From positions 142,377-206,376 of the forward strand of contig JAKPDD010000032.1 of assembly GCA_029552945.1 (NCBI GenBank): DNA of 64,000 nucleotides, written 5' to 3'. Positions 31,767 through 60,553 of this stretch are shown here, piece by piece. The DNA comes from Spirochaetota bacterium (GTDB taxonomy: Bacteria; Spirochaetota; GWB1-36-13; JAKPDD01). A program made the position numbers and the translations under genes. Below the pieces are notes generated by a model that did not search any database, was not told the DNA's origin, and saw only the letters and a list, made by a program, of their open reading frames with translations. Within the stretch, counting starts at the first letter, position 1, and every line of letters begins with the position of its first letter.

Positions 31767-32996
31767 ATGCAGCCACAATTAAGAATTGCACATTTCAAAG
31801 ATAATTCATATATACTTATAGAAGGTAATGAAACAAACTCATCGTTTTATATAATAAAAGATGGGGAAGTAAAGGTAACAAGATCTGTTGATAAAATAAC
31901 AAACTCTAATGGTGAGTTACTAAAACCAGGGGATTTTTTTGGTGTAATATCTGCTATGAGTGGCCAACCCGCAACAGAAACAGCAATAGCAATGACAAAT
32001 GTCAATTTACTTGAAGTACCAAGTAATCAATTTGATTATCTTATAAAGCAGAGTGCTCCCCTTGCAATGAAGATAATAAGGTATTTCTCTAAAAAATTAA
32101 GATTTTTTGACCACCTTCTAACCCAACTTTCAGCTCGAAAACAGGGAGATGAAGAATCAGATGTGTCAAAATTATTCGAACTTGCTGAGTATTATTTCAA
32201 TAATGGAGCTATGAGTCTTGCATTATACGCATATCAAAGATATATTGATCTTGTACCCAATGGAGACAAGATTAATGAAGCAAAACAAAAATTAGAAAGA
32301 TATGAAGGTTTAAAATCAAGTGCTTTTAATCCTACACAAAACATTACAGGCTTTAATAGAAAATATAAGCCAGATACATTTATATTCTGCGAACACGAAC
32401 CAGGTAATGAATTACATATAATACAACAAGGGAAAGTAAAAATTACAAAAATACTTGGGGGGCGTGAAGTATTACTTGCTGTATTAAAAAATGGGGATAT
32501 ATTTGGCGAGATGTCAATACTGGAAAATAAACCAAGAAGTGCATCTGCAATAGCTTATGGCGGAGAAGTTGTAACTTTGGCAGTAAACAAAGAAAACTTT
32601 TCAAATATGGTTGTTGAACAACCTAAACTGGCAACAAGACTTATTACAATATTATCAGATAGGATATGGTCAATATACAGGCAAATTAAAAATATATTAA
32701 TAGCAGATCCAGTCGTAAGAACATTAGATACTCTTCTTACAATTGTTTTAAAAGAAAAAGTACCGATAAAAAGAGGAGAAAAGTTTATATTTGAGTTTGG
32801 TGTAAAAGAACTTATAAACATGCTTGGTCTTCCTTACGGAGAAGGTAAATTATTTGTTAATGAAGCTCTATCTGATACACGATTATTTAAAATAGAAGAA
32901 AGTAGAATAATATGTAATGATATTGATGAACTTGCAAAGATTGTAAATGCACAGTTAAAAAAATTAGAAATATTAAAGAAAGCAAAACAAAGGTAA
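31767..32996 (+). CDS. protein with two cyclic-nucleotide-binding (CNB) domains; the first lacks the phosphate-binding Arg, the second is canonical
   Basis: Domain 2 has FGEMSILENKPRSASAIA (canonical FGE...RSA). Domain 1 has FFGVISAMSGQPATETAIA, with no Arg in the PBC. No HTH was recognised in the C-terminal 150 aa. Confidence 0.7.
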   Translation: MQPQLRIAHFKDNSYILIEGNETNSSFYIIKDGEVKVTRSVDKITNSNGELLKPGDFFGVISAMSGQPATETAIAMTNVNLLEVPSNQFDYLIKQSAPLAMKIIRYFSKKLRFFDHLLTQLSARKQGDEESDVSKLFELAEYYFNNGAMSLALYAYQRYIDLVPNGDKINEAKQKLERYEGLKSSAFNPTQNITGFNRKYKPDTFIFCEHEPGNELHIIQQGKVKITKILGGREVLLAVLKNGDIFGEMSILENKPRSASAIAYGGEVVTLAVNKENFSNMVVEQPKLATRLITILSDRIWSIYRQIKNILIADPVVRTLDTLLTIVLKEKVPIKRGEKFIFEFGVKELINMLGLPYGEGKLFVNEALSDTRLFKIEESRIICNDIDELAKIVNAQLKKLEILKKAKQR

Positions 32997-33002
32997 TTTA
33001 TA

Positions 33003-33356
33003 ATGGCTAAAGAAAACGAAAGAGAAAGCTTTAGAGTACCTTTACATAACGTAATAGGTGAATATTTTTATGAAGGAACTGTTGAAAAATGTGAAATAGT
33101 TGATATCTCTTTTGGGGGTATTGGTATAAAAGTAAATCATATAATGAGTGAGGGAACAACAATAGATGTAAGATTCGAAGTACAAGGCTATGGGAAAATA
33201 TACTGTAAAGGGAGAATAACAGTATCAAGGGGAACAAGAGTGGGAGTAAACTTTACTCATATTCCTGAAAAGTCTATGAAGATAATAAAGAAAATAGTAG
33301 AAGATTATACGTCAGCCAATATAAAAAAGATGTTGGAATCAAAAAAGAATAAATAG
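33003..33356 (+). CDS. PilZ domain c-di-GMP-binding protein
   Basis: RxxxR (RESFR) and DxSxGG (DISFGGIG) motifs; 117 aa. Confidence 0.75.
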   Translation: MAKENERESFRVPLHNVIGEYFYEGTVEKCEIVDISFGGIGIKVNHIMSEGTTIDVRFEVQGYGKIYCKGRITVSRGTRVGVNFTHIPEKSMKIIKKIVEDYTSANIKKMLESKKNK

Positions 33357-34990: not shown

Positions 34991-35824
34991 CTAGAAATCT
35001 TCAAGATTAGAAACAATATTCAGTATCTTATTTGTTCTCTCCTCAGCTCTTTCTTTTATATCTCCAAGGTAATTACTCGCTTCAATAAAATAATTAATAA
35101 AACTACTTCTTTCTTCTGACTTTATAATCTTATAAAGTTTTTTAACATTTTTTATATAATTTTTTATAACTCTTATAGTTTCTTTATTAAGTATTGATAT
35201 GTCAGCATAAAGAGAAGGATTTTGATTAAGAATCCTGCTTATCATATCTATCCTTAGCCTGTATATAGGGCTACTATACTCAAGACTCTCTTTTATATCA
35301 ATACCAAGGTCTTTAAGAACATGAGTAATTGTGATAAAAGTAAAATGAGTAAGCCCCTGTATAACTGCCATCATTTTATCATGTTCTTCTGCCGATGACT
35401 CTTTTACTTTAGCCCCTTCCTTTTCAAACATCTCTTTAAGAAAGTTATACCAGTAATCTCCCCTGCCTTTGCACATTACAATAACCTGGTTTTTTAAACT
35501 TTTTATGCCAGGACCAAAAAGAGGATGAAGCCCAACTACAGATGATTTAGAATATTTAAGCATAAGAGACAAAGGTTCTCTTTTAATAGAAGTAAGATCA
35601 CATAAAAGAGAGTTTTCATTAACAAAAGGTGCTACCTCTTTTATCACAAGCGGAGTTACATTGATGGGAACAGATATTAAAATAATATCTGAACTTTTAG
35701 CTACATCTATAGAACTAATTTCTGTATTTTTATCACTTATTACTGTATCAATCCCATTTCTTCTAAAAAAATCGGCAAAAATCTTGCCCATAAGACCTTT
35801 GCCACCAATTATACCAACTTTCAA
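34991..35824 (-). CDS. tyrA: prephenate dehydrogenase
   Basis: N-terminal Rossmann fold (VGIIGGKGLMGKIFA) and a GLHPLFGP motif. TTG start with a GTGAGGA RBS that overlaps the stop of the upstream giant gene. Confidence 0.75.
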   Translation of the reverse strand: MKVGIIGGKGLMGKIFADFFRRNGIDTVISDKNTEISSIDVAKSSDIILISVPINVTPLVIKEVAPFVNENSLLCDLTSIKREPLSLMLKYSKSSVVGLHPLFGPGIKSLKNQVIVMCKGRGDYWYNFLKEMFEKEGAKVKESSAEEHDKMMAVIQGLTHFTFITITHVLKDLGIDIKESLEYSSPIYRLRIDMISRILNQNPSLYADISILNKETIRVIKNYIKNVKKLYKIIKSEERSSFINYFIEASNYLGDIKERAEERTNKILNIVSNLEDF

Positions 35825-35831
35825 ATTATCC

Positions 35832-38800
35832 TCACTTCTTTTTTATAATAAGAATAGTAATATCATCTTCCTGTTCTGCCATCCATTCATCAACACTTGA
35901 AATAACAGATTGTATAATCTCTTTACAACTTTTATTCCTGTTATCAGATACTATTTTAAATAATCTTTCTTCTCCAAACATATTTCTTTTTGTTAATTTA
36001 TCACCATTTTTTTTCTCTCTTTTAGCCTCTGTAATACCATCAGAATACAAAACTAACAGATCCCCTTTATTAAGTGAAAAACTTCTTATTTCAGCACCTC
36101 TTACTGCATCTTCAAGTATACCTATTAAAAAGCCAGAAGATGGGATAGGCTCTATATTCCCGGTATCAGATCTGCATATAAAAGGTTCAGCATGGTCATT
36201 ACCAAACATCTGGAAATTACCATGTTCATCAAACTTAAAAAGTCTCATTGTCATATACATATGATTATAGTTAGAACCTATATTGCTCTTTTTTGACAAT
36301 CTTGTCTGCATATTCTTATATAAAGTGTAGTTTATAGATTGATATATTTCTTTTATATCCTTTTCTCTGAAGTCTCTATTTTTAGTAAGTGCATTAAAAG
36401 CAACTTCAGCCATCATCATAACAAGCCCTGACTTCAAACCATGTCCTGACACATCTCCAAATACACCAAAATAAGGTTTATCATCCATAAATATATCAAA
36501 ATAGTCCCCCCCAACCTCAGTAGCTGTTCTCATAAAACTAGATATCTCATAAAACTCATTATCCTTAATATCAGGTAACAGAGATACTTGAATATCTTTT
36601 GCTATCTCCATCTCTTTTGCAATCCTTGCTTTCTCCTGCACTTCTTGATACAATTTTGCATTCTCTATCGATATTGCAGCCTCTATTGCAAAAGCTTTAA
36701 ATAATTCAAAAACCTCTTCATTAAAAAGCCCTTTAACCTGCCTATTATCAAGATAAATAACACCTAAAATTTTACCTGAGACAATTAAAGGTGCTGTCAT
36801 TATAGACTTCATTTTATAGTTTATAACTGTCGAATCATCAGCTAATTCCTCTTCAGCATCCATTACTATCTGCCCCTTGCCAGTTTCCAGTGTTGTCTGC
36901 ACAACATAAGTTGAATATACTATTTCCTCATCATTATCTGTTGACCTTAAAGAAGCAATTTTAAGAGGTTTTGTAAAGTCAAGGTCCTCGTATAATAAAA
37001 GTATGCCTCTTTCAGCACCGCCAACCTCCATAGCAAGGTCAAGTATTTTATTTATAAGTTCATTCATATCATGGATCTTTGCAAGTTGCTCAGAAAGCTT
37101 AAGTAAATATTTTAATTGTCTCTGATAATAAAACTCTGTTTGAGTGTGGCTTGTTGTAAATGTAACTGATGTATCTGTAACTTTCTGCTCCAATGGATGA
37201 GCCTGCCCAATTACCCTCTCTTTTAGCAACTTAGCATCTCTTATTGGATTTACAAGCTCTAAATCTTCAAATATTTTTAGAGCTTCATTAAATAATTCAT
37301 CTGCTTCTTTTTTCTCCATTTTAAAGAGTATTAATGACTTAATCATAAGATTTTTACCATAAAAAAACCTAAAATAATCATTATCGATAGTCTTTTTTAT
37401 AGAATTTTCAATGAGTTTTAAAGATTCTGGTAAATTTGGGGTTGAAGAAAAGAGGTTAATAGTTGCTAAAATTCTGTTTTCCCATTGACATATATAGTCT
37501 TGATTAATAGGTTTTGCAAACTCTTTTCCTTTATCTAATAATTCAATTGCCATTTTTTTATTACCAAGTCTTGCATAAAACTCAGCAAGAAAATAATAGA
37601 CTATTGTAATACCAAGGCTTATATTTTTCTCTTTTGCATATTCTAAAGACTTTGTAAGATTTCTTATTGCCTCCTCAATATCACTTTTAGCATAATAAGC
37701 AAGCCCGAGGAAAAAAAATGAATATATCTCAATAATAACATTCTTAAGATCCCTTGCCAGGTCTATAGTATGTGTAAACTCTTTTATAGCTTTCTCAGGG
37801 TCACCAACCAATGCATTAACTGAAGAATAATAGAAAGAATAATATAATTGAAAAATTGGAATATCTTTCTTGCTTTCTATCAGTTCTTCCAGATTTTTTA
37901 TACATTTTAAAGCATCTTTTTTTCTCCCTATATACCCAAGTGCATGGCCCAAAACACCATAAGAATATACTTTTTCAAGGAAATTAACATCTGATTTAAC
38001 ATCAAGTTGGTCTATCAGTTCTAAGCCTTTAGTAATATATTCTATCCCCTCTTTAAAATTCCCATTAGATGCTTCAACACGACCTATAGCACAATAAGGG
38101 ATAGCAAGAAAGTCATTCATTTCAAGTTTTTCAGCAAGTGGTATTAATTCGTAGTAATACTTTAAAGCTTCAGGCAAATTACCTTTAAGGTGATAACTTT
38201 TCCCCAAAAAAAACATTATTTTAACAAGATAAGTTTGGTTATTAATCTTTTTTGCAATATCTATATGTTCCTTAAGAACTTCTATATTATCATCAAAGCC
38301 AGATATTTGAAGATTTATCTCTGCTATTTCAAGCACAAGAGTAAGCCTTGATATTAATGCCTTTTCAGTATCTTTTGCAAACTTCTTTAATATATCAAGA
38401 GCAGTTTTAAAAAACTTTATTGCAAGTTTGAAAGAATATGAATCATTTGCTTTTTTACCCGCCTCTTTATTGTAATAATATGCTTTATTTCTTTTATCAG
38501 CCATAAGATAATGATAAGCAAGTTTATAGACTTTATCACCCTGGGTATATTCAGTTTCAATTATATCAGCAGCAAGACCATGCAATTCCCTAAGTAGATA
38601 GGAAGGTATCTGTGTCTGTAAAGTCTCAAGAACTTTATCATGAATAAAAGAGTATATTCCTTCACCCTTACTGGTTATTGTTTCCCCTATAAGCCCTTCT
38701 TTTTTAGCTTCAAGCAATAGTTCAAGCAATTCTTCTCTCTTCATCCTGAAAATTTTTTTCAAAATAAGTTTATACAAAAGTTCAAAACTAAACTCTTTGC

Positions 38801-40646
38801 CAAAAATAGATGCATAACTTAAAACCTCTCTTGTTTGTGGGGTAAGCCTATTTACTCTATCTACTATTCTATCTATTATAGATGATGAAAACCTAAAATC
38901 AGTAAGTTTATTAAGATTAACAACCCATCCATCTCTCTTCTGGCTTATTATCCCCTCTTCAACAACTGTTTTTAGGTTTTCTATTACAAGATAAGGATTG
39001 CCCTGTGTCGCATCATGTATTCTTGATGAAAGTTCAGAAATACCATTATAAATAATACCAAATATCTCTTTTATTATAGCTTCTGTATCATCAAGACTAA
39101 GTCCTGCTATTTTAATTATATCAGCATTGCCATTCTCAGCCTCTTTTTTTATTATATCATACAACTCTTTTACTCTTAAACTAGATTCTTCTTTTATAGA
39201 TATTATTATATAAATGCTATGTTTTTTTACGTAAGACTTAAAATAATCAAAAAACTCAATACTTCCATGATCCCAGAAATGTACATCATCAAAAACAATA
39301 ACCAAAGGATTTTGAGGGGATGAAATAGTTAAAAAAAAGTCTTTTAATTTTTCAAAGAACAGGTCTTTTTCATTTTTATTTGATATTATTCCCTCATTGT
39401 ATTTACCAAAAATATCAGATAACTCAGGTATAATTTTCGATAATATAATACCTTCATCCCCAATTTTATCTTTTATATTTTTAAGTAAGTTATCTTTTGT
39501 TTTTAAATCTAATCTTAAAATAGATTCTTTTAATTTTTTTACAGCCTCTATAAAAGGATAGTATGGATAAGTTGAATTATTTTCATTGTTTTTTACATAT
39601 GTAAAAAAAGCATTCTTTGAACCAGTATATTTTTGTAATTCAAGCAATAATCTTGTCTTACCATCCCCCGATTGACCAATTATATATGAAACAAATCCTT
39701 TACCAAGTATTGTACTATTAAGATGATTCAAAAGTATGTCAATTTCTTTTTTTCTACCAATAAGAGATGTTTTGAAATTAAGATTTTTGATCCTATCTTT
39801 TTTACCTAATTCAAGATAAAAGGTATGTTTTTGTTCATCATTTAAAGATAAATAAACTTTTAAGTCTTCTATAAGGCCATAAGCACTCTGGTACCTATCA
39901 TCTGGGTCCTTATTTATCAACTTTAATATTATTTTGTTTATTATAGGTGAAAGACTATGTACAATCTTTATTGGTTCTTCAGGCTTTTTAGCTATATGCT
40001 GGTGTAAAAGTGCACCAACATCATCAGCTTCATAAGGTAATTTACCAGTTATTATTTGATAAAACAATATACCAAGAGAATATAAATCAGACCTATGATC
40101 TATATTCCTTGTAAGAATACCTGACTGTTCAGGAGACATATAAGCAAAACTACCAACAACCTCTCTACTTGAAAAAGCTCTCTGAAAATTAAAAAGATTA
40201 GCAACACCAAAGTCTAAAACTTTAATAGTATTATCTTTTGTAACCATTATATTACTTGGTTTTATATCTCTATGTATAATATCCATAGAATGGACATAAT
40301 CCAATGCTTCGGCTATACCCAAAATAAACCTTACCTTATCATCTATTGAAAAACCATTACCTATAATATCCTTCAAACTTTTGCCTTCTATATATTCTGT
40401 AATTATATAAACTTTATTATTTTCCTCTATAAAGTCTAAAAACTTGATTATGTTAGGATGATTTAGTTTTGATAATGTTTCAGCTTCTTTTTTAAACCTT
40501 ATATATGATTGATCATCTTTATTTATTGAGTCTTTAATAGTTTTTATAGCAACAACAGATTCATTATTTATATCAACTCCTTTATATACAATACCCATAC
40601 CACCTTCATTTATCTTTTCTAAGATCTCATAGTTGCCTATTTTCAT
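35832..40646 (-). CDS. 1604-aa multidomain signalling protein: Ser/Thr protein kinase, P-loop NTPase (AAA_16/STAND-like), TPR array, GAF, and PP2C/SpoIIE-type phosphatase
   Basis: Kinase: GxGxxG, VAIK, HRDIKPSN and DFG. P-loop GQSGDGKT near residue 324. Many TPR-like repeats in the middle. GAF-like block around residue 1250. C-terminal PP2C motifs GGDYFD, GDVSGHG and LVLYSDGITE. Confidence 0.8.
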   Translation of the reverse strand: MKIGNYEILEKINEGGMGIVYKGVDINNESVVAIKTIKDSINKDDQSYIRFKKEAETLSKLNHPNIIKFLDFIEENNKVYIITEYIEGKSLKDIIGNGFSIDDKVRFILGIAEALDYVHSMDIIHRDIKPSNIMVTKDNTIKVLDFGVANLFNFQRAFSSREVVGSFAYMSPEQSGILTRNIDHRSDLYSLGILFYQIITGKLPYEADDVGALLHQHIAKKPEEPIKIVHSLSPIINKIILKLINKDPDDRYQSAYGLIEDLKVYLSLNDEQKHTFYLELGKKDRIKNLNFKTSLIGRKKEIDILLNHLNSTILGKGFVSYIIGQSGDGKTRLLLELQKYTGSKNAFFTYVKNNENNSTYPYYPFIEAVKKLKESILRLDLKTKDNLLKNIKDKIGDEGIILSKIIPELSDIFGKYNEGIISNKNEKDLFFEKLKDFFLTISSPQNPLVIVFDDVHFWDHGSIEFFDYFKSYVKKHSIYIIISIKEESSLRVKELYDIIKKEAENGNADIIKIAGLSLDDTEAIIKEIFGIIYNGISELSSRIHDATQGNPYLVIENLKTVVEEGIISQKRDGWVVNLNKLTDFRFSSSIIDRIVDRVNRLTPQTREVLSYASIFGKEFSFELLYKLILKKIFRMKREELLELLLEAKKEGLIGETITSKGEGIYSFIHDKVLETLQTQIPSYLLRELHGLAADIIETEYTQGDKVYKLAYHYLMADKRNKAYYYNKEAGKKANDSYSFKLAIKFFKTALDILKKFAKDTEKALISRLTLVLEIAEINLQISGFDDNIEVLKEHIDIAKKINNQTYLVKIMFFLGKSYHLKGNLPEALKYYYELIPLAEKLEMNDFLAIPYCAIGRVEASNGNFKEGIEYITKGLELIDQLDVKSDVNFLEKVYSYGVLGHALGYIGRKKDALKCIKNLEELIESKKDIPIFQLYYSFYYSSVNALVGDPEKAIKEFTHTIDLARDLKNVIIEIYSFFFLGLAYYAKSDIEEAIRNLTKSLEYAKEKNISLGITIVYYFLAEFYARLGNKKMAIELLDKGKEFAKPINQDYICQWENRILATINLFSSTPNLPESLKLIENSIKKTIDNDYFRFFYGKNLMIKSLILFKMEKKEADELFNEALKIFEDLELVNPIRDAKLLKERVIGQAHPLEQKVTDTSVTFTTSHTQTEFYYQRQLKYLLKLSEQLAKIHDMNELINKILDLAMEVGGAERGILLLYEDLDFTKPLKIASLRSTDNDEEIVYSTYVVQTTLETGKGQIVMDAEEELADDSTVINYKMKSIMTAPLIVSGKILGVIYLDNRQVKGLFNEEVFELFKAFAIEAAISIENAKLYQEVQEKARIAKEMEIAKDIQVSLLPDIKDNEFYEISSFMRTATEVGGDYFDIFMDDKPYFGVFGDVSGHGLKSGLVMMMAEVAFNALTKNRDFREKDIKEIYQSINYTLYKNMQTRLSKKSNIGSNYNHMYMTMRLFKFDEHGNFQMFGNDHAEPFICRSDTGNIEPIPSSGFLIGILEDAVRGAEIRSFSLNKGDLLVLYSDGITEAKREKKNGDKLTKRNMFGEERLFKIVSDNRNKSCKEIIQSVISSVDEWMAEQEDDITILIIKKK

Positions 40647-40699: not shown

Positions 40700-41083
40700 T
40701 CACAAAATGTCACTAAGTCTAATACCTGAAAAATAATCCCTAAGTCTTTTTTCAGCCCCTTCCCATACTTTTCTTGTATTACATTTACTAAAAGCACTGC
40801 ATCCTTTACAGTCTACAAGTTTAATATCATTTTCAAGGATAGATATAATTTTATCAAGCCTTATTTCAGAAGGGGGATCTTTAAGCACATAGCCTCCTTT
40901 TATACCTCTCTCACCATTTATAATACCATTTTTTTTTAATTTGATTATAATCTGTTCAACATATTTTCTAGGCAAATTCTGTGATAAAGATATTTCTTTT
41001 ACACTGGTTACTTTTTCCCCATAATTTCTTGCGATTTCAAGCAGTATTCTAATCCCATATCTTGATCTTGTTGAAAGTTTCAT
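40700..41083 (-). CDS. Rrf2 family transcriptional regulator with a 3-Cys putative Fe-S site
   Basis: N-terminal wHTH (MKLSTRSRYGIRILLEIA) and C-x2-C-x5-C (CKGCSAFSKC). Confidence 0.8.
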   Translation of the reverse strand: MKLSTRSRYGIRILLEIARNYGEKVTSVKEISLSQNLPRKYVEQIIIKLKKNGIINGERGIKGGYVLKDPPSEIRLDKIISILENDIKLVDCKGCSAFSKCNTRKVWEGAEKRLRDYFSGIRLSDIL

Positions 41084-41087
41084 ACTT

Positions 41088-42620
41088 TTACTCTAAAACA
41101 CTCTCTTTTTTAAGTTCAATAATATTAATAGCTTTTTCAGTAGCTTTTATAGCAGCCATTAACTGGTCTGAATGTACACCCTTTGTTTTATATTCCTTAC
41201 CTTCAAACTCCCAGGATATAGTTGTCTGAACCAGGGCTTCACTACTCCCCCCAGGTGGGATATTAACATAATAATCAACCAAATTAGGGACTGTAAACCC
41301 AAGTGTCTTAGCTGCAATCTTTAGTGCCTTAAAAAAAGCATCGAACCCCCCATCCCCCATTGATATAGATTCACATGTAGTATCTTTATATTTTACCATT
41401 ATAGAGGCAATAGGTTTAAGTTCATGAGAAGATGTTATAACATAAGATACAACACTAAATATATTTTTTATCTCTTTACTTTCAAGAATATCATCAATTA
41501 TATACGGAAGATCCTCCAAAGTTATAACATGTTTTAAGGCACTAAATTCAACTATTTTTTGCAAAACTTTAGCTTTTTCTTCCTCATTTAAATATATTCC
41601 CAATTTTTTTAAATTATGCTCAAGATTAGCTTTTCCTGATAATTTACCAAGTGCATACTCCCTTTCTCTCCCAAATCTTGCTGGATTAAGTTTATTTTCA
41701 TATAAATTCCCTTTCTTATCACCATCAGCATGTACACCAGCTGTTTGAGTAAAAACATTATCCCCCACTATTGGTTTATTTGCAGCCATCCTAACTGTAG
41801 AATAAAGCTGAACTGTTTTTGAGGTCTTATATAAATATTTCTCATCAATTGTAGTATAGAATCTATCTGAATAAAAATCCTTTATAGCTACAACAACCTC
41901 TTCAAGTGGAGCATTCCCTGCTCTTTCTCCCATCCCATTAACAGTAACATGAAGTCCATCAACCCCTGCCCTTATAGCAGCAAGACAATTGGCAGTCCCA
42001 AGTCCATAATCATTATGAGGATGAAAATCAAAATTTGTATCAGGAAAAATATCTTTAAGTTCTTTGATAAAATCAAATACATTTTCAGGGACCAACACAC
42101 CTAATGTATCAGGAAGCATTATTCTATTAACTCTGTCCTTCAAATTCTCTATAAGAAAAAATACATAATCCTTTGAATGAATCATACCATTTGACCAATC
42201 TTCAAGATATACATTTACTTTCATCCCTTTTTTCATAGCATAATCTATCTCTTTAAGTATATCAGAAAGATGCTCTTCTGGTGTTTTTTTTAGCTGAACT
42301 GACAAATGTTTCAGAGAACCTTTAGTAAGAAGGTTTATAACTCTAACACCAGTATTATATATCCAATCAATAGACTTTCCCATATCAACAAAACCAAGTA
42401 TTTCAAATTCATCTCTTTGCCCAAACTTTTCAACTATTTTTCTTATCAATTGGAACTCAGAGTCAGCAACCCTAGCACTAGTAAGTTCAATTCTATCAAC
42501 TTTTAAAAAATTAAGCAGGATATTTACAATATTTATTTTTTCTCCTTCAGTATAGGATACATTAGCCATCTGTTCTCCATCTCTTAAAGTTGTGTCCATT
42601 ATTTCTATCTTTTTAACCAT
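41088..42620 (-). CDS. cimA: (R)-citramalate synthase / 2-isopropylmalate synthase family enzyme, CimA-like
   Basis: DTTLRDGEQ, HxH (FHPHND), and a C-terminal LeuA-dimer regulatory domain. The SARV-type N-terminal region is more like CimA than the leuA at 56042. The cimA/leuA assignment cannot be made rigorous by eye. Confidence 0.6.
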   Translation of the reverse strand: MVKKIEIMDTTLRDGEQMANVSYTEGEKINIVNILLNFLKVDRIELTSARVADSEFQLIRKIVEKFGQRDEFEILGFVDMGKSIDWIYNTGVRVINLLTKGSLKHLSVQLKKTPEEHLSDILKEIDYAMKKGMKVNVYLEDWSNGMIHSKDYVFFLIENLKDRVNRIMLPDTLGVLVPENVFDFIKELKDIFPDTNFDFHPHNDYGLGTANCLAAIRAGVDGLHVTVNGMGERAGNAPLEEVVVAIKDFYSDRFYTTIDEKYLYKTSKTVQLYSTVRMAANKPIVGDNVFTQTAGVHADGDKKGNLYENKLNPARFGREREYALGKLSGKANLEHNLKKLGIYLNEEEKAKVLQKIVEFSALKHVITLEDLPYIIDDILESKEIKNIFSVVSYVITSSHELKPIASIMVKYKDTTCESISMGDGGFDAFFKALKIAAKTLGFTVPNLVDYYVNIPPGGSSEALVQTTISWEFEGKEYKTKGVHSDQLMAAIKATEKAINIIELKKESVLE

Positions 42621-49406: not shown

Positions 49407-50261
49407 TTATAAATAATTCTTTATAGCTTCATGTATCTTTATAATAGATTCTTTCTGATTCATTATATAAAAGTGTAGCCCTTTTACACCATTTTTAAGT
49501 AAATCTAAACTTTGGTTTATAGCAAACTCTATCCCTATTTTCTTTATTACTTCCTGATTATCTTTGTATTTCTCAAGATTATTTTTAAGAGTTTCCGGTA
49601 ATAAAGGCTTTGCTATCTCTGTGATTTTCTGTAATTGATTATAATTTGTTATTATAAATATACCAGCTAAAATAGGCTTGTTTATCCCTATTTTCTCTAT
49701 TTTATCTATAAAATTATAAAATACTTTATTATCAAAAAACAATTGAGTTATACCAAAACTTGCCCCATTATCAAACTTTAATTTAAGATAATTAATATCA
49801 TCTTCAAGTGTTCTGGCTTCAGGATGTTTCTCTGGATAACAAGCAATACCTATACAAAAATCTTTTTTTGAAATATATTTTACAAGATCTGAGGCATGTT
49901 TAAAGTCACCCTCTTTTAAATCCCCTTCTTTCGGGGTATCACCTCTTAAAGCAAGTATATTTTCAATATTATTTTCTTTAAACTCGCTTATTATTTTATC
50001 CAATTCATCTATTGAACTTCCTATACATGTAAGATGAGCCATAGGCTCTATACCAATATTTGACTTTATATAACTTGCTATCTTTTCTGTGTTTTTTCTT
50101 GTTGAGCCCCCAGCTCCATATGTTACAGATATAAAGTCTGGCTTCAAGTATTTTATATCCATTATTGTTTGGTATAATTGTTCAATATTGCCATCTTTTT
50201 TTGGTGGGAAAACTTCAATTGAAAAACTTTTTTTATTTTGAAGGATCTTACTTATCTTCAT
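49407..50261 (-). CDS. metF: 5,10-methylenetetrahydrofolate reductase
   Basis: FSIEVFPPK, ISVTYGAGGSTR and HLTCIG motifs. Confidence 0.85.
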   Translation of the reverse strand: MKISKILQNKKSFSIEVFPPKKDGNIEQLYQTIMDIKYLKPDFISVTYGAGGSTRKNTEKIASYIKSNIGIEPMAHLTCIGSSIDELDKIISEFKENNIENILALRGDTPKEGDLKEGDFKHASDLVKYISKKDFCIGIACYPEKHPEARTLEDDINYLKLKFDNGASFGITQLFFDNKVFYNFIDKIEKIGINKPILAGIFIITNYNQLQKITEIAKPLLPETLKNNLEKYKDNQEVIKKIGIEFAINQSLDLLKNGVKGLHFYIMNQKESIIKIHEAIKNYL

Positions 50262-50325
50262 AAAAACCTCTATATAACTTATTGGTCATTTAGAGATATA
50301 AAATATAATAATAAAATACCATATT

Positions 50326-52161
50326 TTAAAAACCTGCCGAAAGATTGATATAATAGTAATCATCTCTATGAGATATAGGCCCTGCTATTGAAGGTTTTTT
50401 ATCACCAGCCCTGTAACCAAGGTAAAAACCTGCCGGGAATTGGAAAAAGAATGAACTGTAATGTTTTCTTGGTGACAACCTTAAACCTATCCCAAACCCA
50501 TACAACATATTTTCAATAGATACACTTTTATAATCTCTCCAGGCACCACCTGCCTCCGCAAACACAACAAAGGAAAGAGATTCTATAATATTTGTAGGGA
50601 ATCTAAACTCTATTGAAAAATAGGTAGTTGCCTTTGTTATACCAGACATAATATCTTCAATTACCTGTACGTTTGTTCTCATTTTCTTATCAAGACTAAG
50701 GCTTATACTATCATTTTTTTTACTTAAAAGAACATATGTCCTGTTTGTTACTGCAAAAATAAGATTAAACATAGGAGCAGGAAGATAAAACTCTATTATT
50801 GAACCAATTTTATTAGAGAGATTTTTGCCCCAAAACAATTGTGATTCAAATCCTAATTTTAATCCTTGAGTTATAAAAAAATTATCATCCACATTATCCC
50901 AGACTATAAACATACCAGAAGATGTGAGTATTTCAATGTCTCTCTTACTATCTGGCAGTTTTTCATATTTATCATCTACCAAATAACTTATTTTGTAATC
51001 TTCCTGTTGAAAAAGATATAAAAAAATATTTTCCCACAAATTAATGCCACTTGTTAATTTAATAGAATAGTTTTGAATAAGTTTATTGTTTTTTGTATCC
51101 TTTATTTCTTCTATCATATCCTCTTTTTTAAGAGTTAAATCAAAAAATATACCTTTCCAGAAAAATGGATTTGTATACTCAAGAATAAAAACAGGTCTTG
51201 ATAATGCAAGCTCCCAGCCTGCTCCTGCTCTAAATCTTTGAAGTGTGTCAAAAAGAGATATATCATAATATTCAATAGAAGTAATGACCCCTATATTTTT
51301 TGGTGCTGTAATTGTAGTCGCCAATTCTCTAAGATCAAGTTCGTCAACTTTTATTATAAGATCATAGTACGGGCTATCAAAATTTTTCTTAATAAACTTA
51401 AAATATATCTCTCTATAAAATCCCAGTTTTCTAAGTCTTTTATAAGAAAAAAAGAGAAGATCTGAATCCACCCATATATCTGGTTTAAGACCTATATAAT
51501 TTAATAAATCATCATAAGCTATGTTAGTTCCAACCAATTTAATTTCACCTATTCTTATTAAGGGTATATTTTTTATGTATACTACTATTACTGCTTCCTC
51601 TCTTTCATATTCATTAATTATGCTTAAACTTTTGTCTTTCCTTTTTACTATTTTATAATCTATCTCATAAGTAAAAATTCCATATTTTTGATTGTACATA
51701 TTAAAATCATCCAAAGCCTTTTCAATATAGTTTGTACTTATTGGCTTACCTATGATAACATTATTTTTTTTAAAAATATCCATTAATACATTAAGATTAA
51801 GTAATTTATTATCAATAACTTCTATATCGCCAAGTTTTTCATTTTCTACTATATTTATTTCAAGAAAGAATTCTTCGCCTTCTTTATAAAAAAGATATGA
51901 AACATTTTTAAAAAGACCTGATTCTATAATCTTAGCTATACCATTAGTTATTTCATAAACAAACACTTTTGAATCTGGCTTAATTTCAGTTAACTTTATT
52001 ATTTCTTCTTCTCTTAAAGAATCATTACCTTTTATAGTTAAAGACTTTAAAAAAATTTTTTTATTAAGAGAAATTTGAGAAAACTCTAATACTTCCCCCT
52101 TGATTTTAGCTGAATATAAAAAAACAAATGATATCACCAATAATACTCTATATTTTTTCAC
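50326..52161 (-). CDS. Omp85-family outer membrane protein paralog (POTRA plus surface-antigen beta-barrel), 611 aa
   Basis: Signal peptide, POTRA-like segments, a C-terminal barrel with FAEAGGAW...GFGIGLRL, and a terminal Phe. Confidence 0.7.
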   Translation of the reverse strand: MKKYRVLLVISFVFLYSAKIKGEVLEFSQISLNKKIFLKSLTIKGNDSLREEEIIKLTEIKPDSKVFVYEITNGIAKIIESGLFKNVSYLFYKEGEEFFLEINIVENEKLGDIEVIDNKLLNLNVLMDIFKKNNVIIGKPISTNYIEKALDDFNMYNQKYGIFTYEIDYKIVKRKDKSLSIINEYEREEAVIVVYIKNIPLIRIGEIKLVGTNIAYDDLLNYIGLKPDIWVDSDLLFFSYKRLRKLGFYREIYFKFIKKNFDSPYYDLIIKVDELDLRELATTITAPKNIGVITSIEYYDISLFDTLQRFRAGAGWELALSRPVFILEYTNPFFWKGIFFDLTLKKEDMIEEIKDTKNNKLIQNYSIKLTSGINLWENIFLYLFQQEDYKISYLVDDKYEKLPDSKRDIEILTSSGMFIVWDNVDDNFFITQGLKLGFESQLFWGKNLSNKIGSIIEFYLPAPMFNLIFAVTNRTYVLLSKKNDSISLSLDKKMRTNVQVIEDIMSGITKATTYFSIEFRFPTNIIESLSFVVFAEAGGAWRDYKSVSIENMLYGFGIGLRLSPRKHYSSFFFQFPAGFYLGYRAGDKKPSIAGPISHRDDYYYINLSAGF

Positions 52162-52618
52162 ATATCTGTCCTAAACTTTTATTTAAGTAATATAAAATAC
52201 TTTTTCCATCTAATATTATATTAACTCCTAAATAAAAAAGTGGTTCAAGAAAAAATCTTCTATTTTTAATCTCTTTATGAGGTATAAAGAGTCTACTATC
52301 ATTTATATTAACACCTTCCATAAATAGTACATCAATATCTATAATTCTTGGTCCCCATCTAATATTCTCTTCTCGCCCCATATTTTTTTCTATCTCTTTT
52401 ACTTTTTCAAGTACCTGATAAGGATTCATATTTGTTTCACACTTAACCACTGTATTTATAAAAAAGGGCTGGGAAGGACCAATCGGCTCTGTTTCATAAA
52501 AAGGTGCTATTCTTTTTAAATTAAAATATTCTGATAATATTTTTATAGCATCCTTTATATTTTTTTTTCTATCCCCTAAGTTTGAACCAATACCTAAAAA
52601 CAATATTCTATAGTTCAT
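52148..52618 (-). CDS. folK: 2-amino-4-hydroxy-6-hydroxymethyldihydropteridine diphosphokinase
   Basis: ILFLGIGSNLGDR, ETEPIG and WGPRIIDIDVL motifs. Confidence 0.85.
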   Translation of the reverse strand: MNYRILFLGIGSNLGDRKKNIKDAIKILSEYFNLKRIAPFYETEPIGPSQPFFINTVVKCETNMNPYQVLEKVKEIEKNMGREENIRWGPRIIDIDVLFMEGVNINDSRLFIPHKEIKNRRFFLEPLFYLGVNIILDGKSILYYLNKSLGQICEKI

Positions 52619-56041: not shown

Positions 56042-57583
56042 ATGGAAAAAATATGGATTTTTGATACAACTTTAAGAGATGGTGAACAGGCACCAGGTGC
56101 ATCCATGAGTATTAAAGAAAAGATAGAAGTTGCAAAAGCTTTAGCAAGTATGAAGATAGATATAATAGAAGCTGGATTCCCAGTATCATCACCTGCTCAG
56201 TTTGAAGCATGTAAAGCTATAGCTGACAATATACAAGGTCCAATTATTGCCGGGCTTGCAAGAGCAGTTGAAAAAGATATTAAAGCATGTTACGATGCTT
56301 TAAAAAGTGCACAAAAGTTTAGAATACACACATTTATTGCAACAAGCCCAATACATAGAGAATATAAATTAAAAATGAGTAAGGAAGAGGTAATAAAAAA
56401 TGCTGTTAATGCTGTAAAATATGCAAAAACTTTTACTGATAATATAGAGTTTTCAGCAGAAGATGCTGCAAGAACAGAAAAAGAGTTTTTAGCTGAAGTA
56501 ACTGAAGCAGTTATTGAAGCAGGTGCTGTAGTTGTAAATATACCTGATACTGTGGGATATACAACACCTCAGGAGTTTTTTGAAATAATAAAATACCTTA
56601 AAACACATGTAAAAAATATAGATAAAGCAATACTCTCAGTACACTGCCATAATGACCTTGGGCTTGCTGTCGCAAACTCTCTTGCTGCATGTATAGCAGG
56701 TGCAAGACAGATAGAATGTACAGTAAATGGCATAGGTGAGAGAGCAGGAAATGCTGCTATGGAAGAAATTGTTATGGGACTTTCTGTAAGGCAAGACTTT
56801 TATAATCTATATACTGACATTGATAAGAAAAAAATTTACTCTACAAGTAAACTGGTTTCAAGAATAATAGGTTATCCTATAGCTCCAAATAAGGCAATTA
56901 TTGGTAAAAACGCTTTTGCACATGAATCAGGAATACATCAAGATGGAGTTCTTAAAAATAGATCAACTTATGAAATAATGAAACCAGAAGACATAGGAAG
57001 ATCATCAACCCAGATAGTACTCGGAAGACATTCAGGAAGAGCAGGTTTCAAAGCAAAAATAGAGGAGATGGGTTTTTATCTTAGCAAAGAGAAAATTGAC
57101 GAGCTTTATGAAAAGTTTATTTTAATAGCAGACAAAAAGAAAGAGGTAACAGAAGAAGATATAATATCTATTCTTGGAGACACAGGAGTACTAGAAAAAG
57201 GATATGAAATTCAATATCTTACTGTAGTAAGTGGACAGGAAGTAATCCCTACTGCTACTGTAATGATAAAGAGAGGGGACGAAGAATATAAGGCTGCTGC
57301 AATAGGAGATGGCCCTGTTGATGCAACTTATAAAGCAATTAACAAAGCTTTAAATATTGATAATGTTATACTTGAGGACTTTTTTATTCAATCAGTATCA
57401 GCAGGAAGAGATGCAATAGGCCAGGTAAATGTAAGTATAAAAGTATCTGATACTATTGCTACAGGTGTATATGCTGATACTGATATAATCCTTGCTGCTG
57501 CAAAATCATATCTTAATGCTATAAACAAAATTTTATACAAACAGGGGAGAAAAATAGAATATGATTTTCAAGAAAGGATTTAA
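56042..57583 (+). CDS. leuA: 2-isopropylmalate synthase
   Basis: Collinear with bacterial LeuA: IFDTTLRDGEQAPGASMS, RIHTFIATSPIH, NIPDTVGYTTP, HCHNDLGLAVANSLAA, and a C-terminal LeuA_dimer domain. Confidence 0.9.
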   Translation: MEKIWIFDTTLRDGEQAPGASMSIKEKIEVAKALASMKIDIIEAGFPVSSPAQFEACKAIADNIQGPIIAGLARAVEKDIKACYDALKSAQKFRIHTFIATSPIHREYKLKMSKEEVIKNAVNAVKYAKTFTDNIEFSAEDAARTEKEFLAEVTEAVIEAGAVVVNIPDTVGYTTPQEFFEIIKYLKTHVKNIDKAILSVHCHNDLGLAVANSLAACIAGARQIECTVNGIGERAGNAAMEEIVMGLSVRQDFYNLYTDIDKKKIYSTSKLVSRIIGYPIAPNKAIIGKNAFAHESGIHQDGVLKNRSTYEIMKPEDIGRSSTQIVLGRHSGRAGFKAKIEEMGFYLSKEKIDELYEKFILIADKKKEVTEEDIISILGDTGVLEKGYEIQYLTVVSGQEVIPTATVMIKRGDEEYKAAAIGDGPVDATYKAINKALNIDNVILEDFFIQSVSAGRDAIGQVNVSIKVSDTIATGVYADTDIILAAAKSYLNAINKILYKQGRKIEYDFQERI

Positions 57584-60541: not shown

Positions 60542-60553
60542 GAGGTGTATATT

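What the first reader, a model, noticed from the sequence alone, without database searches (positions are those of the whole stretch)
35832..40646. 1604-aa single-polypeptide kinase-NTPase-TPR-GAF-PP2C sensor, translationally coupled to tyrA
One protein carries an apparently active Hanks-type Ser/Thr kinase (VAIK, HRDIKPSN, DFG), a STAND/AAA_16-type P-loop NTPase, a long TPR array, a GAF domain and a PP2C/SpoIIE phosphatase with intact metal-binding Asp motifs. It has opposing kinase and phosphatase activities with two sensory modules. Its stop codon overlaps the RBS of tyrA (TTG start 7 nt later), and it lies downstream of an Rrf2 regulator and a cimA-like gene. It could be an amino-acid or redox-responsive switch. 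An alternative, less likely given the housekeeping context, is a STAND-type defence sensor.
Basis: partly seen in the sequence, partly recalled or inferred. Interest (0 to 1): 0.7.

Follow-up and report, generated by a model that had tools for sequence, protein, structure and literature searches.

The report
Kinase–STAND–TPR–GAF–phosphatase signalling protein
This is a real 1604-residue cytoplasmic signalling protein of an uncultured spirochaete that joins a protein kinase, a molecular-switch ATPase, two sensor modules and an RsbU-type phosphatase; the design is common in spirochaetes and already listed for Leptospira, its mechanism is unstudied, and its link to the neighbouring tyrosine-synthesis gene is only local.

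Summary
ORF 35832..40646 (-) encodes 1604 aa with Pkinase, AAA_16/STAND NTPase, TPR array, GAF and SpoIIE-type PPM phosphatase. All catalytic motifs are intact and near-invariant in 47 homologues. Its TGA stop lies inside a GAGGA Shine-Dalgarno, 7 nt before the TTG start of tyrA. AlphaFold models (pLDDT 89 and 91) match a STAND-TPR protein (6MFV) and partner-switching phosphatases (SiaA, Rv1364c, RssB, RsbX, SpoIIE).

The architecture is common: 47 of the top 120 database clusters and 26 of the 150 best 50%-identity representatives. NCBI already names this protein "protein kinase". The same architecture is listed for Leptospira interrogans LIC12324, whose transposon mutants lose fitness in hamsters. 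It belongs to a modular family, kinase-STAND-TPR-GAF-[output], where the output is SpoIIE, histidine kinase, GGDEF, HD-GYP, AraC, sigma54-AAA or cyclase. That argues the phosphatase is a swappable output, not the kinase's antagonist. tyrA adjacency occurs only in the 77%-identical orthologue, not in 11 other contexts. No defence context was found.

Verdict: new member of a known, mechanistically uncharacterised kind. One new detail is a conserved alternating-threonine linker before the GAF domain.

The parts
35832..40646 (-). Whole ORF, 1604 aa plus TGA stop; a soluble cytoplasmic multidomain signalling protein
   Evidence: No transmembrane segment: the maximum KD19 value is 1.66 and falls within a GAF strand. 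The protein is 100% identical to HOJ49977.1/HOM37975.1/HPQ48780.1, named 'protein kinase [Spirochaetota bacterium]'.
39837..40646 (-). Hanks-type Ser/Thr kinase domain (residues 1-270), catalytically intact
   Evidence: Pkinase E 3e-56. Closest solved relatives are PknB, StkP and PknA. K35 is conserved in 47/47 homologues, D127 in 46/47, N132 in 47/47, D145 in 46/47 and E173 in 47/47.
38607..39779 (-). STAND nucleotide-binding oligomerisation domain (NBD-HD-WHD, residues about 290-680), with Walker A at 39654-39677 and Walker B at 39279-39302
   Evidence: AAA_16 E 5e-14. AF2 model has pLDDT 91.3 and pTM 0.83. The top Foldseek hit is 6MFV, a STAND-TPR protein (1e-12), followed by Apaf-1, CED-4, MalT and Cdc6/Orc1. 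Walker A G324/G329/K330 are conserved in 47/47; Walker B D453 in 41/47 (plus 4 Glu) and D454 in 44/47.
37206..38606 (-). TPR-like helical repeat array (residues about 681-1147, about 24 helices), the presumed sensor or specificity domain
   Evidence: TPR_12 and TPR_MalT hits and a helical-repeat model. It is the fastest-diverging region: 14-18% identity in distant homologues against 37-44% for the kinase.
37122..37205 (-). Disordered linker (residues 1148-1175) carrying a conserved alternating-Thr motif, TSVTFTTSHTQTE (residues 1158-1170, coordinates 37137-37175)
   Evidence: pLDDT is below 50 here in both models. The motif occurs once per protein, always at this position, in the orthologue clade P0001-P0009, P0011 and P0014. 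Its function is inferred only.
36657..37121 (-). GAF domain (residues about 1176-1330); ligand unknown
   Evidence: GAF, GAF_2 and GAF_3 hits with E 1e-11 to 3e-9. High-confidence model. PDB sequence hit to the GAF of the HD-GYP protein 4MCW.
36567..36656 (-). C-terminal part of a single 47-residue helix (protein residues 1310-1356) that joins GAF to the phosphatase and carries the IAKDIQVSLLP motif
   Evidence: Helix at residues 161-207 of the model. Q1353 and P1358 are invariant or nearly so. This corresponds to the coiled-coil linker and switch element described for RsbU, RsbP and RsbZ (PMC12143880).
35835..36566 (-). PPM (PP2C) phosphatase of the SpoIIE/RsbU subfamily (residues 1361-1604), metal-binding Asp residues intact
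   Evidence: SpoIIE E 1e-34. Foldseek neighbours are SiaA 6K4E (2e-13), Rv1364c 3KE6, RssB, RsbX and SpoIIE; PstP, tPphA and STP rank lower. D1381 and D1398 are conserved in 47/47; D1536, D1594 and D1595 in 46/47.
35822..35834 (-). Kinase-tyrA junction: TGA stop (35832-35834) inside GAGGA (35829-35833), a 7-nt spacer, then TTG start (35822-35824)
   Evidence: In the 77% orthologue the junction is TAA + 11 nt + TTG, so adjacency is conserved but the SD-in-stop overlap is not.
34991..35824 (-). tyrA (prephenate dehydrogenase, 277 aa, TTG start). It is co-transcribed with the kinase gene but is not a conserved partner of the family.
   Evidence: PDH_N and PDH_C hits and NCBIfam prephenate dehydrogenase models. 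Adjacent only in the window and in L003.
40700..41083 (-). Rrf2-family regulator (127 aa) with a C-x2-C-x5-C motif, 53 nt upstream of the kinase gene. Context only.
   Evidence: Rrf2 E 3e-33; IscR- and CymR-like hits below cutoff; sequence.
41088..42620 (-). cimA-like citramalate/isopropylmalate synthase, first gene of the co-oriented run. Context only.
   Evidence: HMGL-like and LeuA_dimer hits. Best NCBIfam hit is Leptospira CimA at 608 bits against a cutoff of 950.

Best explanation
The gene encodes a soluble cytoplasmic signal-transduction protein of the STAND class. It belongs to a modular family with a constant chassis (N-terminal Hanks Ser/Thr kinase, STAND NOD, TPR sensor, GAF) and an exchangeable C-terminal output. 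In this protein the output is an RsbU/SpoIIE-type PPM phosphatase.

Proposed mechanism, by analogy with MalT, Apaf-1 and PknK for the N-terminal half and with RsbU, RsbP and RsbZ for the C-terminal half:
1. A ligand or partner protein binds the fast-evolving TPR array, and possibly a small molecule binds the GAF domain. This releases the NOD from its closed ADP state.
2. ATP binding drives oligomerisation.
3. Oligomerisation brings the kinase domains together for trans-autophosphorylation and substrate phosphorylation.
4. The same assembly dimerises or stiffens the GAF coiled-coil linker, which switches the PPM phosphatase on through its alpha1/alpha2 switch element.

The phosphatase most likely acts on a separately encoded phospho-protein of the partner-switching type (STAS/SiaC-like). 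It is less likely to reverse the kinase's own marks.

Shown here: the domain identities, intact and conserved catalytic sites, folds, family modularity, the lack of a conserved neighbourhood and the lack of defence context. Inferred: the order of events, oligomerisation, the ligands and the substrates. The tight junction with tyrA reflects operon packing in this lineage, not a family-wide functional link.
For: Domains and motifs are established. All three catalytic centres are near-invariant across 47 homologues that fall to about 25% identity. The NOD-TPR model (pLDDT 91) best matches the STAND-TPR protein 6MFV, then Apaf-1, CED-4 and MalT. NCBIfam TIGR03903 (TOMM kinase/cyclase fusion) aligns to residues 289-1049, which shows the chassis is shared with other effector fusions.

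The GAF-PPM model (pLDDT 89) has one 47-residue connecting helix, and its nearest structures are partner-switching PPMs. The same GAF-SpoIIE cassette occurs alone and behind FHA, PAS, HAMP and REC inputs. Output swapping on the same chassis gives these counts in the top 120: SpoIIE 47, HisKA/HATPase 13, GGDEF 13, AraC 4, sigma54-AAA 4, HD-GYP 2, cyclase 1, LuxR 1. Among the best 150 representatives there are 26 KIN-NOD-GAF-PPM and 34 KIN-NOD-GAF with another tail. L014 holds tandem paralogues with AraC and SpoIIE outputs. The TPR array diverges fastest.

From the literature: STAND activation by inducer-driven NOD opening and multimerisation, with PknK named as a STAND kinase (PMC4381067, PMC9045387); and a general sensor-linker-PPM dimer mechanism that includes GAF inputs (PMC12143880).
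Against: No STAS, RsbW or SiaC-like gene lies in the 64-kb window or next to any of 12 homologue loci (13-17, 55-62). The partner-switching substrate is therefore conjecture. Oligomerisation, ATP dependence and ligand identity are untested. The constant presence of an active kinase might mean the kinase regulates the output internally, for example through the Thr-rich linker, rather than acting as a parallel output. The AlphaFold models cover separate fragments as monomers and say nothing about inter-domain communication.
Confidence: 0.55

Rival explanations
1. Self-contained antagonistic switch. The kinase and the phosphatase act on the same substrate or substrates, or on the protein's own phospho-sites. 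The two sensory modules set the kinase/phosphatase balance.
For: Both enzymes are intact and co-conserved in at least 47 homologues. A conserved Thr-rich linker lies between the two halves and could be a shared cis substrate. PP2C+kinase fusions were noted in Pseudomonas, with the PP2C N-terminal (PMC1262709).
Against: The PPM is of the RsbU/SpoIIE type, not the PstP/PrpC/Stp type that normally reverses Hanks-kinase marks. The same slot is filled by GGDEF, HK, HD-GYP, AraC, sigma54-AAA or cyclase domains in sister proteins, and 31 of 150 representatives have no output domain at all. The kinase therefore does not need a fused antagonist.
Confidence: 0.2
2. Dedicated regulator of aromatic or branched-chain amino-acid metabolism. 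It would sense an amino-acid or redox signal and control TyrA, CimA or Rrf2, as the operon context might suggest.
For: The run cimA-rrf2-kinase-tyrA is co-oriented and tightly packed, with gaps of 4, 53 and 7 nt. tyrA adjacency recurs in the 77% orthologue. Post hoc, aromatic-pathway genes appeared near some homologues: trpGD in L007, a Trp_repressor-family gene in L009/L012 and aroA in L010.
Against: tyrA is not adjacent in any homologue at or below 54% identity. A prospective test on new independent contexts found none in three (P0033, P0041, P0061), and the fourth look-up, P0009, only repeated the L009 lineage. The post-hoc hits are different genes on different strands. Rfam finds no riboswitch or T-box in the window. 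There is no ACT or other amino-acid-binding domain.
Confidence: 0.07
3. STAND-type anti-phage defence sensor (Avs-like or kinase-based abortive infection).
For: The protein has a STAND NTPase with a rapidly diverging repeat sensor. PADLOC kinase models score highly: PD-T4-6 at 2e-86, mad6, and MkoA over residues 3-372.
Against: The PADLOC matches cover only the generic Hanks kinase domain, and no defence model covers the NOD, TPR, GAF or PPM regions. The window is core housekeeping, with flagellar hook genes, motAB, bamA/skp, uvrC, metK, ribosomal proteins and rnf. The 12 homologue contexts are also housekeeping or signalling. Sister outputs are classical signalling domains (GGDEF, HK, AraC, sigma54-AAA), not nucleases, proteases, TIR or Sir2. 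The conflict-system survey read here does not describe this architecture (PMC7159879).
Confidence: 0.03

Closest known systems
[quoted passage not shown]
   Same: The listed architecture is the same and the phylum (Spirochaetota) is the same. Two independent transposon mutants had reduced in vivo fitness in hamsters (PMC5100919).
   Different: No TPR is listed for it. No biochemical or mechanistic work was found.
Mycobacterium tuberculosis PknK (STAND Ser/Thr kinase)
   Same: An N-terminal Hanks kinase is fused to a MalT-like STAND NTPase. PknK is cytoplasmic, forms homodimers and is classed as STAND (PMC4381067, PMC9045387; Krupa 2005 'Kinase + MalT-like').
   Different: PknK has no GAF domain and no PPM phosphatase output. 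It comes from a different phylum. Direct sequence similarity beyond the kinase domain was not tested here.
Cyanobacterial 'dual kinases' (HstK / cbSTKIII: STK-GAF-HisKA; also STK-GAF-CYCc)
   Same: A Hanks kinase is followed by a GAF domain and a C-terminal signalling output. This corresponds to the HisKA and cyclase output variants seen among the window protein's homologues (PMC2176072, PMC1262709).
   Different: The output is a histidine kinase or cyclase rather than a PPM. Those surveys did not annotate the intervening AAA_16/TPR region.
RsbU/RsbP/RsbZ/SiaA-type sensor-linker-PPM phosphatases (partner-switching initiators)
   Same: The phosphatase belongs to the same PPM subfamily by Pfam and by structure. 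A sensor domain (GAF, as in C. difficile RsbZ) joins the PPM through a long helical linker and the alpha1/alpha2 switch (PMC12143880).
   Different: Those proteins lack the kinase and the STAND module. They sit in or near operons with STAS and RsbW partners, which are absent from the window and from the homologue loci.
MalT / Pyrococcus PH0952-type STAND-TPR proteins (6MFV, 8BOB)
   Same: They share the NBD-HD-WHD NOD followed by a TPR/SUPR sensor and are the best structural matches.
   Different: Their effector is a DNA-binding domain or is absent. Here there are two enzymatic effectors, one at each end.
TOMM system kinase/cyclase fusion protein (TIGR03903)
   Same: Residues 289-1049 align to positions 477-1212 of the model (E 2e-70), so the AAA_16-TPR core is homologous and the protein also carries a kinase.
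   Different: The score of 238 bits is far below the 706-bit cutoff. There is no cyclase domain and no TOMM gene context.

Membership tests
Hanks-type (eukaryote-like) Ser/Thr protein kinase, PF00069 | Pfam score above the gathering cutoff, plus the Gly-rich loop, VAIK Lys, alphaC Glu, HRD..N catalytic loop, DFG and APE motifs | tested here: met
   191 bits against a cutoff of 31.7. All motifs are present and conserved in 46-47 of 47 homologues.
Hanks-type Ser/Thr protein kinase | Phosphotransfer activity and autophosphorylation | not testable with these tools
   Requires an in vitro kinase assay.
STAND NTPase | P-loop NBD with Walker A and B, followed by a helical domain and a winged-helix domain (the NOD), then a C-terminal repeat sensor | tested here: met
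   AAA_16 at 53.7 bits against a cutoff of 32.6. The AF2 model shows NBD-HD-WHD followed by about 24 helices. The top fold hit is 6MFV, a STAND-TPR protein, followed by Apaf-1, CED-4 and MalT. Walker A is invariant.
STAND NTPase | Inducer- and ATP-dependent oligomerisation | not testable with these tools
   Requires SEC-MALS or cryo-EM with and without nucleotide.
PPM/PP2C phosphatase, SpoIIE/RsbU subfamily (PF07228) | Pfam score above cutoff, conserved metal-binding Asp residues, and a PPM beta-sandwich fold with N-terminal switch helices | tested here: met
   120.6 bits against a cutoff of 25. D1381, D1398, D1536 and D1594/D1595 are conserved in 46-47 of 47 homologues. Foldseek gives SiaA, Rv1364c, RssB, RsbX and SpoIIE with E 2e-13 to 1e-9.
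Partner-switching system (RsbU-RsbV-RsbW type) | A STAS-domain (or SiaC-like) phospho-substrate and a GHKL anti-sigma kinase encoded with, or near, the phosphatase | tested here: not met
   No STAS or HATPase_c_2 gene lies in the 64-kb window or adjacent in 12 homologue loci. The rest of the genome could not be searched, so a distant partner is not excluded.
GAF small-molecule sensor domain | GAF fold and Pfam score above cutoff | tested here: met
   GAF at 45.6 bits against a cutoff of 22.4; confident model.
GAF small-molecule sensor domain | An identified ligand (cNMP, bilin or other) | not tested
   No ligand-specific analysis was possible. The sequence has an NKFDE-like stretch (DNRQVKGLFNEE), which is not diagnostic.
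Anti-phage defence STAND (Avs-like) or kinase defence systems (PD-T4-6, MADS, Mokosh) | A full-length match to a defence-system model, a toxic effector domain, and a defence-island context | tested here: not met
   PADLOC hits are confined to the kinase domain, about residues 2-372. The outputs are signalling domains. The neighbourhood is housekeeping.
Kinase-STAND-TPR-GAF-[output] modular family (uncharacterised; LIC12324-like when the output is SpoIIE) | Colinear Pkinase + AAA_16 NOD + TPR + GAF + SpoIIE in one polypeptide of about 1600-1750 aa | tested here: met
   47 of the top 120 clusters and 26 of the 150 best representatives by local HMMs. Homologues at 41-77% identity cover the full length.
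Conserved operon / functional link with tyrA | tyrA adjacency retained across family members | tested here: not met
   tyrA is adjacent only in the window and in P0002 at 77% identity. It is absent in P0003, P0005, P0007, P0013, P0008/P0011, P0009, P0025, P0033, P0035, P0041 and P0061.

The most novel reading that the evidence does not exclude
The conserved alternating-threonine linker (T-x-T-[FY]-T-x-[ST]-x-T-Q-T, residues 1158-1170) between the TPR sensor and the GAF domain is a multi-site autophosphorylation cluster. The STAND-activated N-terminal Hanks kinase would write phosphates on it, in cis or within the oligomer, to gate the GAF-linker-PPM output. The protein would then be a one-polypeptide bridge from Hanks-type Ser/Thr signalling to RsbU-type partner-switching or sigma-factor control, with the number of phosphothreonines acting as a rheostat or timer. 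The existence of FHA-GAF-SpoIIE relatives shows that pThr reading upstream of this cassette recurs.
Probability: 0.15. Interest if true: 0.55.

Novelty: new member of a known kind. Interest (0 to 1): 0.3.

Why it matters
The family is large. It has at least 598 clusters at 50% identity with E<=1e-30 for the core. It is often present as tandem paralogues, and it is prominent in Spirochaetota. In Leptospira interrogans, disruption of a gene listed with the same architecture reduces fitness during infection. Despite this, nobody has shown how a STAND switch, a Hanks kinase and an RsbU-type phosphatase cooperate within one chain. This analysis gives a testable framework: a constant kinase-STAND-TPR-GAF chassis with a swappable output, plus specific residues and a candidate phospho-linker to mutate. 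It also removes a misleading lead, the supposed functional link to tyrA. For the genome scan, this finding is a correct observation of a known, if under-studied, protein type and not a new kind of system.

Tried and rejected
(1) Aromatic-amino-acid neighbourhood pattern. After noticing trpGD, a Trp_repressor-family gene and aroA near some homologues, I wrote the hypothesis down and tested four new loci. P0009 merely repeated the L009 lineage, and P0033, P0041 and P0061 had none. I rejected the pattern as chance.

(2) Defence system. PADLOC matches only the generic kinase domain.

(3) Regulatory RNA, T-box or riboswitch control of cimA or tyrA. Rfam at gathering threshold found 0 hits and ARAGORN found no tRNAs in the window.

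(4) Promoter and terminator scans were uninformative: 63 promoter-like sites against 61.9 expected, and 5 terminator-like sites against 2.6 +/- 2.0 expected. The terminator-like hairpin inside the tyrA 5' end (35804..35773) is not conserved in the orthologue.

(5) The genome-contig scan returned only one true relative, an uncultured Spirochaeta contig at 47% identity, because peptide-pattern seeding is strict. It could not be used to retrieve the Leptospira homologue.

(6) Searching with the GAF-PPM cassette alone, hoping for named Leptospira proteins, gave only RsbU-annotated metagenomic proteins.

I replaced it with local HMMs built from my own alignment. Those detect only KIN, NOD, GAF and PPM, so the other outputs appear just as unexplained C-terminal tails.

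(8) A PDB sequence search of the non-kinase part found only generic TPR proteins, a GAF domain (4MCW) and weak SpoIIE hits. Structure-based search was needed to place the NOD.

(9) Literature searches found no mechanistic study of this architecture.
Full report
OBSERVATION. The 1604-codon ORF at 35832..40646 on the minus strand is real. It starts at an ATG that follows an AAAGGAGG Shine-Dalgarno. The stop codon TGA (35834-35832) lies inside a GAGGA Shine-Dalgarno. The TTG start of a prephenate dehydrogenase follows 7 nt later and opens straight into the Rossmann GxGxxG. An Rrf2 gene and a cimA-like gene lie upstream on the same strand, with gaps of 53 and 4 nt. The identical protein is deposited three times at NCBI as 'protein kinase [Spirochaetota bacterium]' and occurs on five contigs of up to 294 kb. 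It is therefore not an assembly chimera.

ARE THE ENZYMES LIVE? I aligned 47 homologues that carry the full domain set, with overall identity falling to about 25%. In the kinase, K35, N132 and E173 are invariant, and D127 and D145 are kept in 46 of 47. In the NTPase, Walker A G324, G329 and K330 are invariant, and the Walker B acidic pair is kept in 41-44 of 47. In the phosphatase, D1381 and D1398 are invariant, and D1536, D1594 and D1595 are kept in 46 of 47. All three catalytic centres are under purifying selection. One homologue, P0015, has NLG in place of DFG and is probably a pseudokinase. No transmembrane segment is present, so the protein is cytoplasmic.

STRUCTURE. An AlphaFold2 model of residues 270-1175 (pLDDT 91.3, pTM 0.83) shows an alpha/beta NBD, a helical domain, a winged-helix domain and then about 24 helices of TPR-like repeats. 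Its best PDB match is 6MFV, the Pyrococcus STAND ATPase with a TPR sensor. Apaf-1, CED-4, MalT and Cdc6/Orc1 follow, and LGN-type TPRs match the repeat part. This confirms a STAND NOD with a TPR sensor.

A model of residues 1150-1604 (pLDDT 89) shows a GAF domain joined to a PPM fold by one 47-residue helix, protein residues 1310-1356. Its nearest structures are SiaA, the RsbU domain of Rv1364c, RssB, RsbX and SpoIIE. All of these are partner-switching or related PPMs. The PstP, tPphA and STP enzymes that normally oppose Hanks kinases rank lower. The long-helix geometry matches the sensor, coiled-coil linker and PPM switch mechanism described for RsbU and extended to GAF-PPM proteins such as RsbZ (PMC12143880).

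HOW COMMON IS IT? A word-indexed search returned 5594 hits at E<=1e-10. By my hand count of the precomputed Pfam lists, 47 of the best 120 clusters (90% identity) carry Pkinase + AAA_16 + GAF + SpoIIE, and most are from Spirochaetota MAGs. The same chassis also ends in other outputs: HisKA/HATPase (13), GGDEF (13), AraC (4), sigma54-AAA (4), HD-GYP (2), cyclase (1) and LuxR (1). About 28 clusters stop after the TPR array.

An exhaustive phmmer search of the NOD-TPR core against 1.84 billion 50%-identity representatives gave 598 hits at E<=1e-30 and 20,517 at E<=1e-10. I scanned the best 150 with local HMMs for the four conserved modules. The counts were 26 KIN-NOD-GAF-PPM, 34 KIN-NOD-GAF with a different C-terminal tail, 31 KIN-NOD and 53 NOD only. 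Tandem paralogues occur. L009 holds two full-architecture genes side by side. L014 holds an AraC-output gene that overlaps a SpoIIE-output gene by 4 nt. The GAF-SpoIIE cassette also exists alone and behind FHA, PAS, HAMP and REC inputs, and is always annotated RsbU-like.

LITERATURE. [quoted passage not shown] Two insertion mutants lost fitness in hamsters, which agrees with an earlier study cited there (PMC5100919). I found no mechanistic work. Kinase + MalT-like STAND (PknK), kinase + GAF + HisKA 'dual kinases' of cyanobacteria, and PP2C + kinase fusions have been catalogued since 2005-2007 (PMC1262709, PMC2176072, PMC4381067, PMC9045387). The equivalence therefore rests on architecture and phylum alone.

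CONTEXT. tyrA follows the gene directly only in the 77%-identical orthologue. There the junction is TAA + 11 nt + TTG, so adjacency is kept but not the SD-in-stop overlap. Eleven other homologue loci have unrelated neighbours: lipase and peptidase genes, flgK/flgL/fliW/csrA, thiG and radical-SAM genes, a GAF-HD-GYP gene, greA-like and PAP2 genes, cdaA, ferredoxin and hydrogenase genes, cheW/MCP/cheX, and BatD/VWA genes. A post-hoc impression that aromatic-pathway genes recur nearby was written down and tested on new loci, and it failed.

The 64-kb window itself is core chromosome. It carries uppP, ftsK, hydF, metK, rplM/rpsI, a liv ABC transporter, tyrS, fliK/flgD/flgE, motAB, ruvX, pdxA, bamA/skp, uvrC, metF, folK, leuA and rnf. 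It holds no STAS or RsbW genes and no defence genes. PADLOC models match only the generic kinase domain. Rfam and tRNA scans are empty.

MECHANISM. The constant part of the family is kinase-NOD-TPR-GAF, and the variable part is the C-terminal enzyme or DNA-binding domain. Every one of those outputs is a type known to be controlled through a helical linker from an upstream sensor. The TPR array is the fastest-evolving segment, as expected for the specificity determinant of a STAND protein.

I therefore propose the following sequence. Binding at the TPR array, and possibly at the GAF domain, opens the NOD. ATP-driven oligomerisation then activates the kinase by proximity. The same assembly sets the GAF-linker-PPM dimer to its active state. 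The phosphatase acts on a separately encoded partner-switching-type substrate. The domain assignments, folds, conservation and modularity are shown by the analyses above. The order of events, the ligands and the substrates are inferred.

The main rival is that kinase and phosphatase oppose each other on one substrate. Two findings weaken it: the PPM subfamily assignment, and the free replaceability or absence of the output domain. It is not excluded.

A NEW DETAIL. Both models leave residues about 1150-1175 disordered. In the orthologue clade (at least about 45% identity) this linker carries a conserved alternating-threonine motif. In the query it reads TSVTFTTSHTQTEF. In the relatives it appears as SSTFTMTSTQTEF, TKTHTMTFTQTEF, TDTQTYTLTATQTEF and TKTYTYTKTQTQF. 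The motif occurs exactly once per protein and always at this position. Across all 47 homologues the linker has twice the protein-wide Ser/Thr content, 0.21 against 0.105. Disordered linkers are often Ser/Thr-rich, however, so this comparison is not a controlled test. The motif is a plausible autophosphorylation cluster for the fused kinase, and I offer that reading only as the novel case.

VERDICT. This is a new member of a known, widespread but mechanistically unstudied architecture. It is not a rare design, not a defence system and not a tyrA-specific regulator. Interest is modest at 0.3. The open question it points to is how a STAND switch coordinates a Hanks kinase with an RsbU-type phosphatase. 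That question is real, and it is better addressed in Leptospira, where mutants already exist.

Noticed in passing
window 37137-37175 (-), protein residues 1158-1170: A conserved alternating-threonine motif (T-x-T-[FY]-T-x-[ST]-x-T-Q-T-E-F) lies in the disordered TPR-to-GAF linker. It occurs once per protein and only in the orthologue clade P0001-P0009, P0011 and P0014. It is a candidate multi-site phosphorylation cluster.
   Followed up: partly
L009 6001-11157 and 11258-16429; L014 1319-6004 and 6001-11244 (plus a third 1616-aa gene from 16518): Family members occur as tandem paralogues. L009 has two full kinase-AAA_16-GAF-SpoIIE genes side by side. In L014 an AraC-output paralogue overlaps a SpoIIE-output paralogue by 4 nt, which shows output swapping within a tandem array.
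   Followed up: partly
window 35773-35804 (-), inside the 5' end of tyrA: A terminator-like hairpin (GGCAAGATTTTTGCC followed by a T-run) lies 20-50 nt into the tyrA coding sequence. It is not statistically enriched (5 sites against 2.6 +/- 2.0 expected), and the stem is absent in the 77% orthologue (L003 4880-4920). It is probably a chance result of Phe codons in an AT-rich genome.
   Followed up: yes
window 40700-41083 (-): The Rrf2-family regulator carries a C-x2-C-x5-C motif (LVDCKGCSAFSKCNTRK), which suggests an Fe-S cluster. It follows the cimA-like gene after only 4 nt. IscR, CymR and NsrR models all score below their cutoffs, so its subfamily is unassigned.
   Followed up: no
window 41088-42620 (-) and 56042-57583 (+): The window has two HMGL-like/LeuA_dimer synthases. 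The first resembles Leptospira CimA (608 bits against a cutoff of 950). The second looks like a canonical leuA and sits just upstream of an rnf operon (57561-61261).
   Followed up: no
window 31767-33356 (+) and 18964-20412 (+): Other second-messenger signalling genes lie nearby: a protein with two cNMP-binding domains followed directly by a PilZ-domain protein, and an HDOD/HD protein. There is no evidence that they are linked to the kinase gene.
   Followed up: no
L003 6255-9466 versus window 49407-52618: In the 77% orthologue's contig, metF, a hypothetical gene and folK lie immediately after tyrA on the opposite strand. In the window the same genes lie about 14 kb away on the kinase's strand. 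A local rearrangement or inversion has therefore occurred even between close relatives.
   Followed up: no
window 14727-16202 (-) and 50326-52161 (-): Two sizeable ORFs (491 aa and 611 aa) have no Pfam hit at E<=1e-3.
   Followed up: no
P0015 (homologue, 39% identity): The DFG motif is replaced by NLG while the NTPase and PPM motifs are retained. This is probably a pseudokinase variant of the architecture.
   Followed up: no
L009 16432-16710 and L012 11153-11428: A small Trp_repressor-family (PF01371) gene lies convergent and immediately downstream of the P0008/P0011 and P0009 lineage genes. Synteny is conserved within that lineage only.
   Followed up: partly
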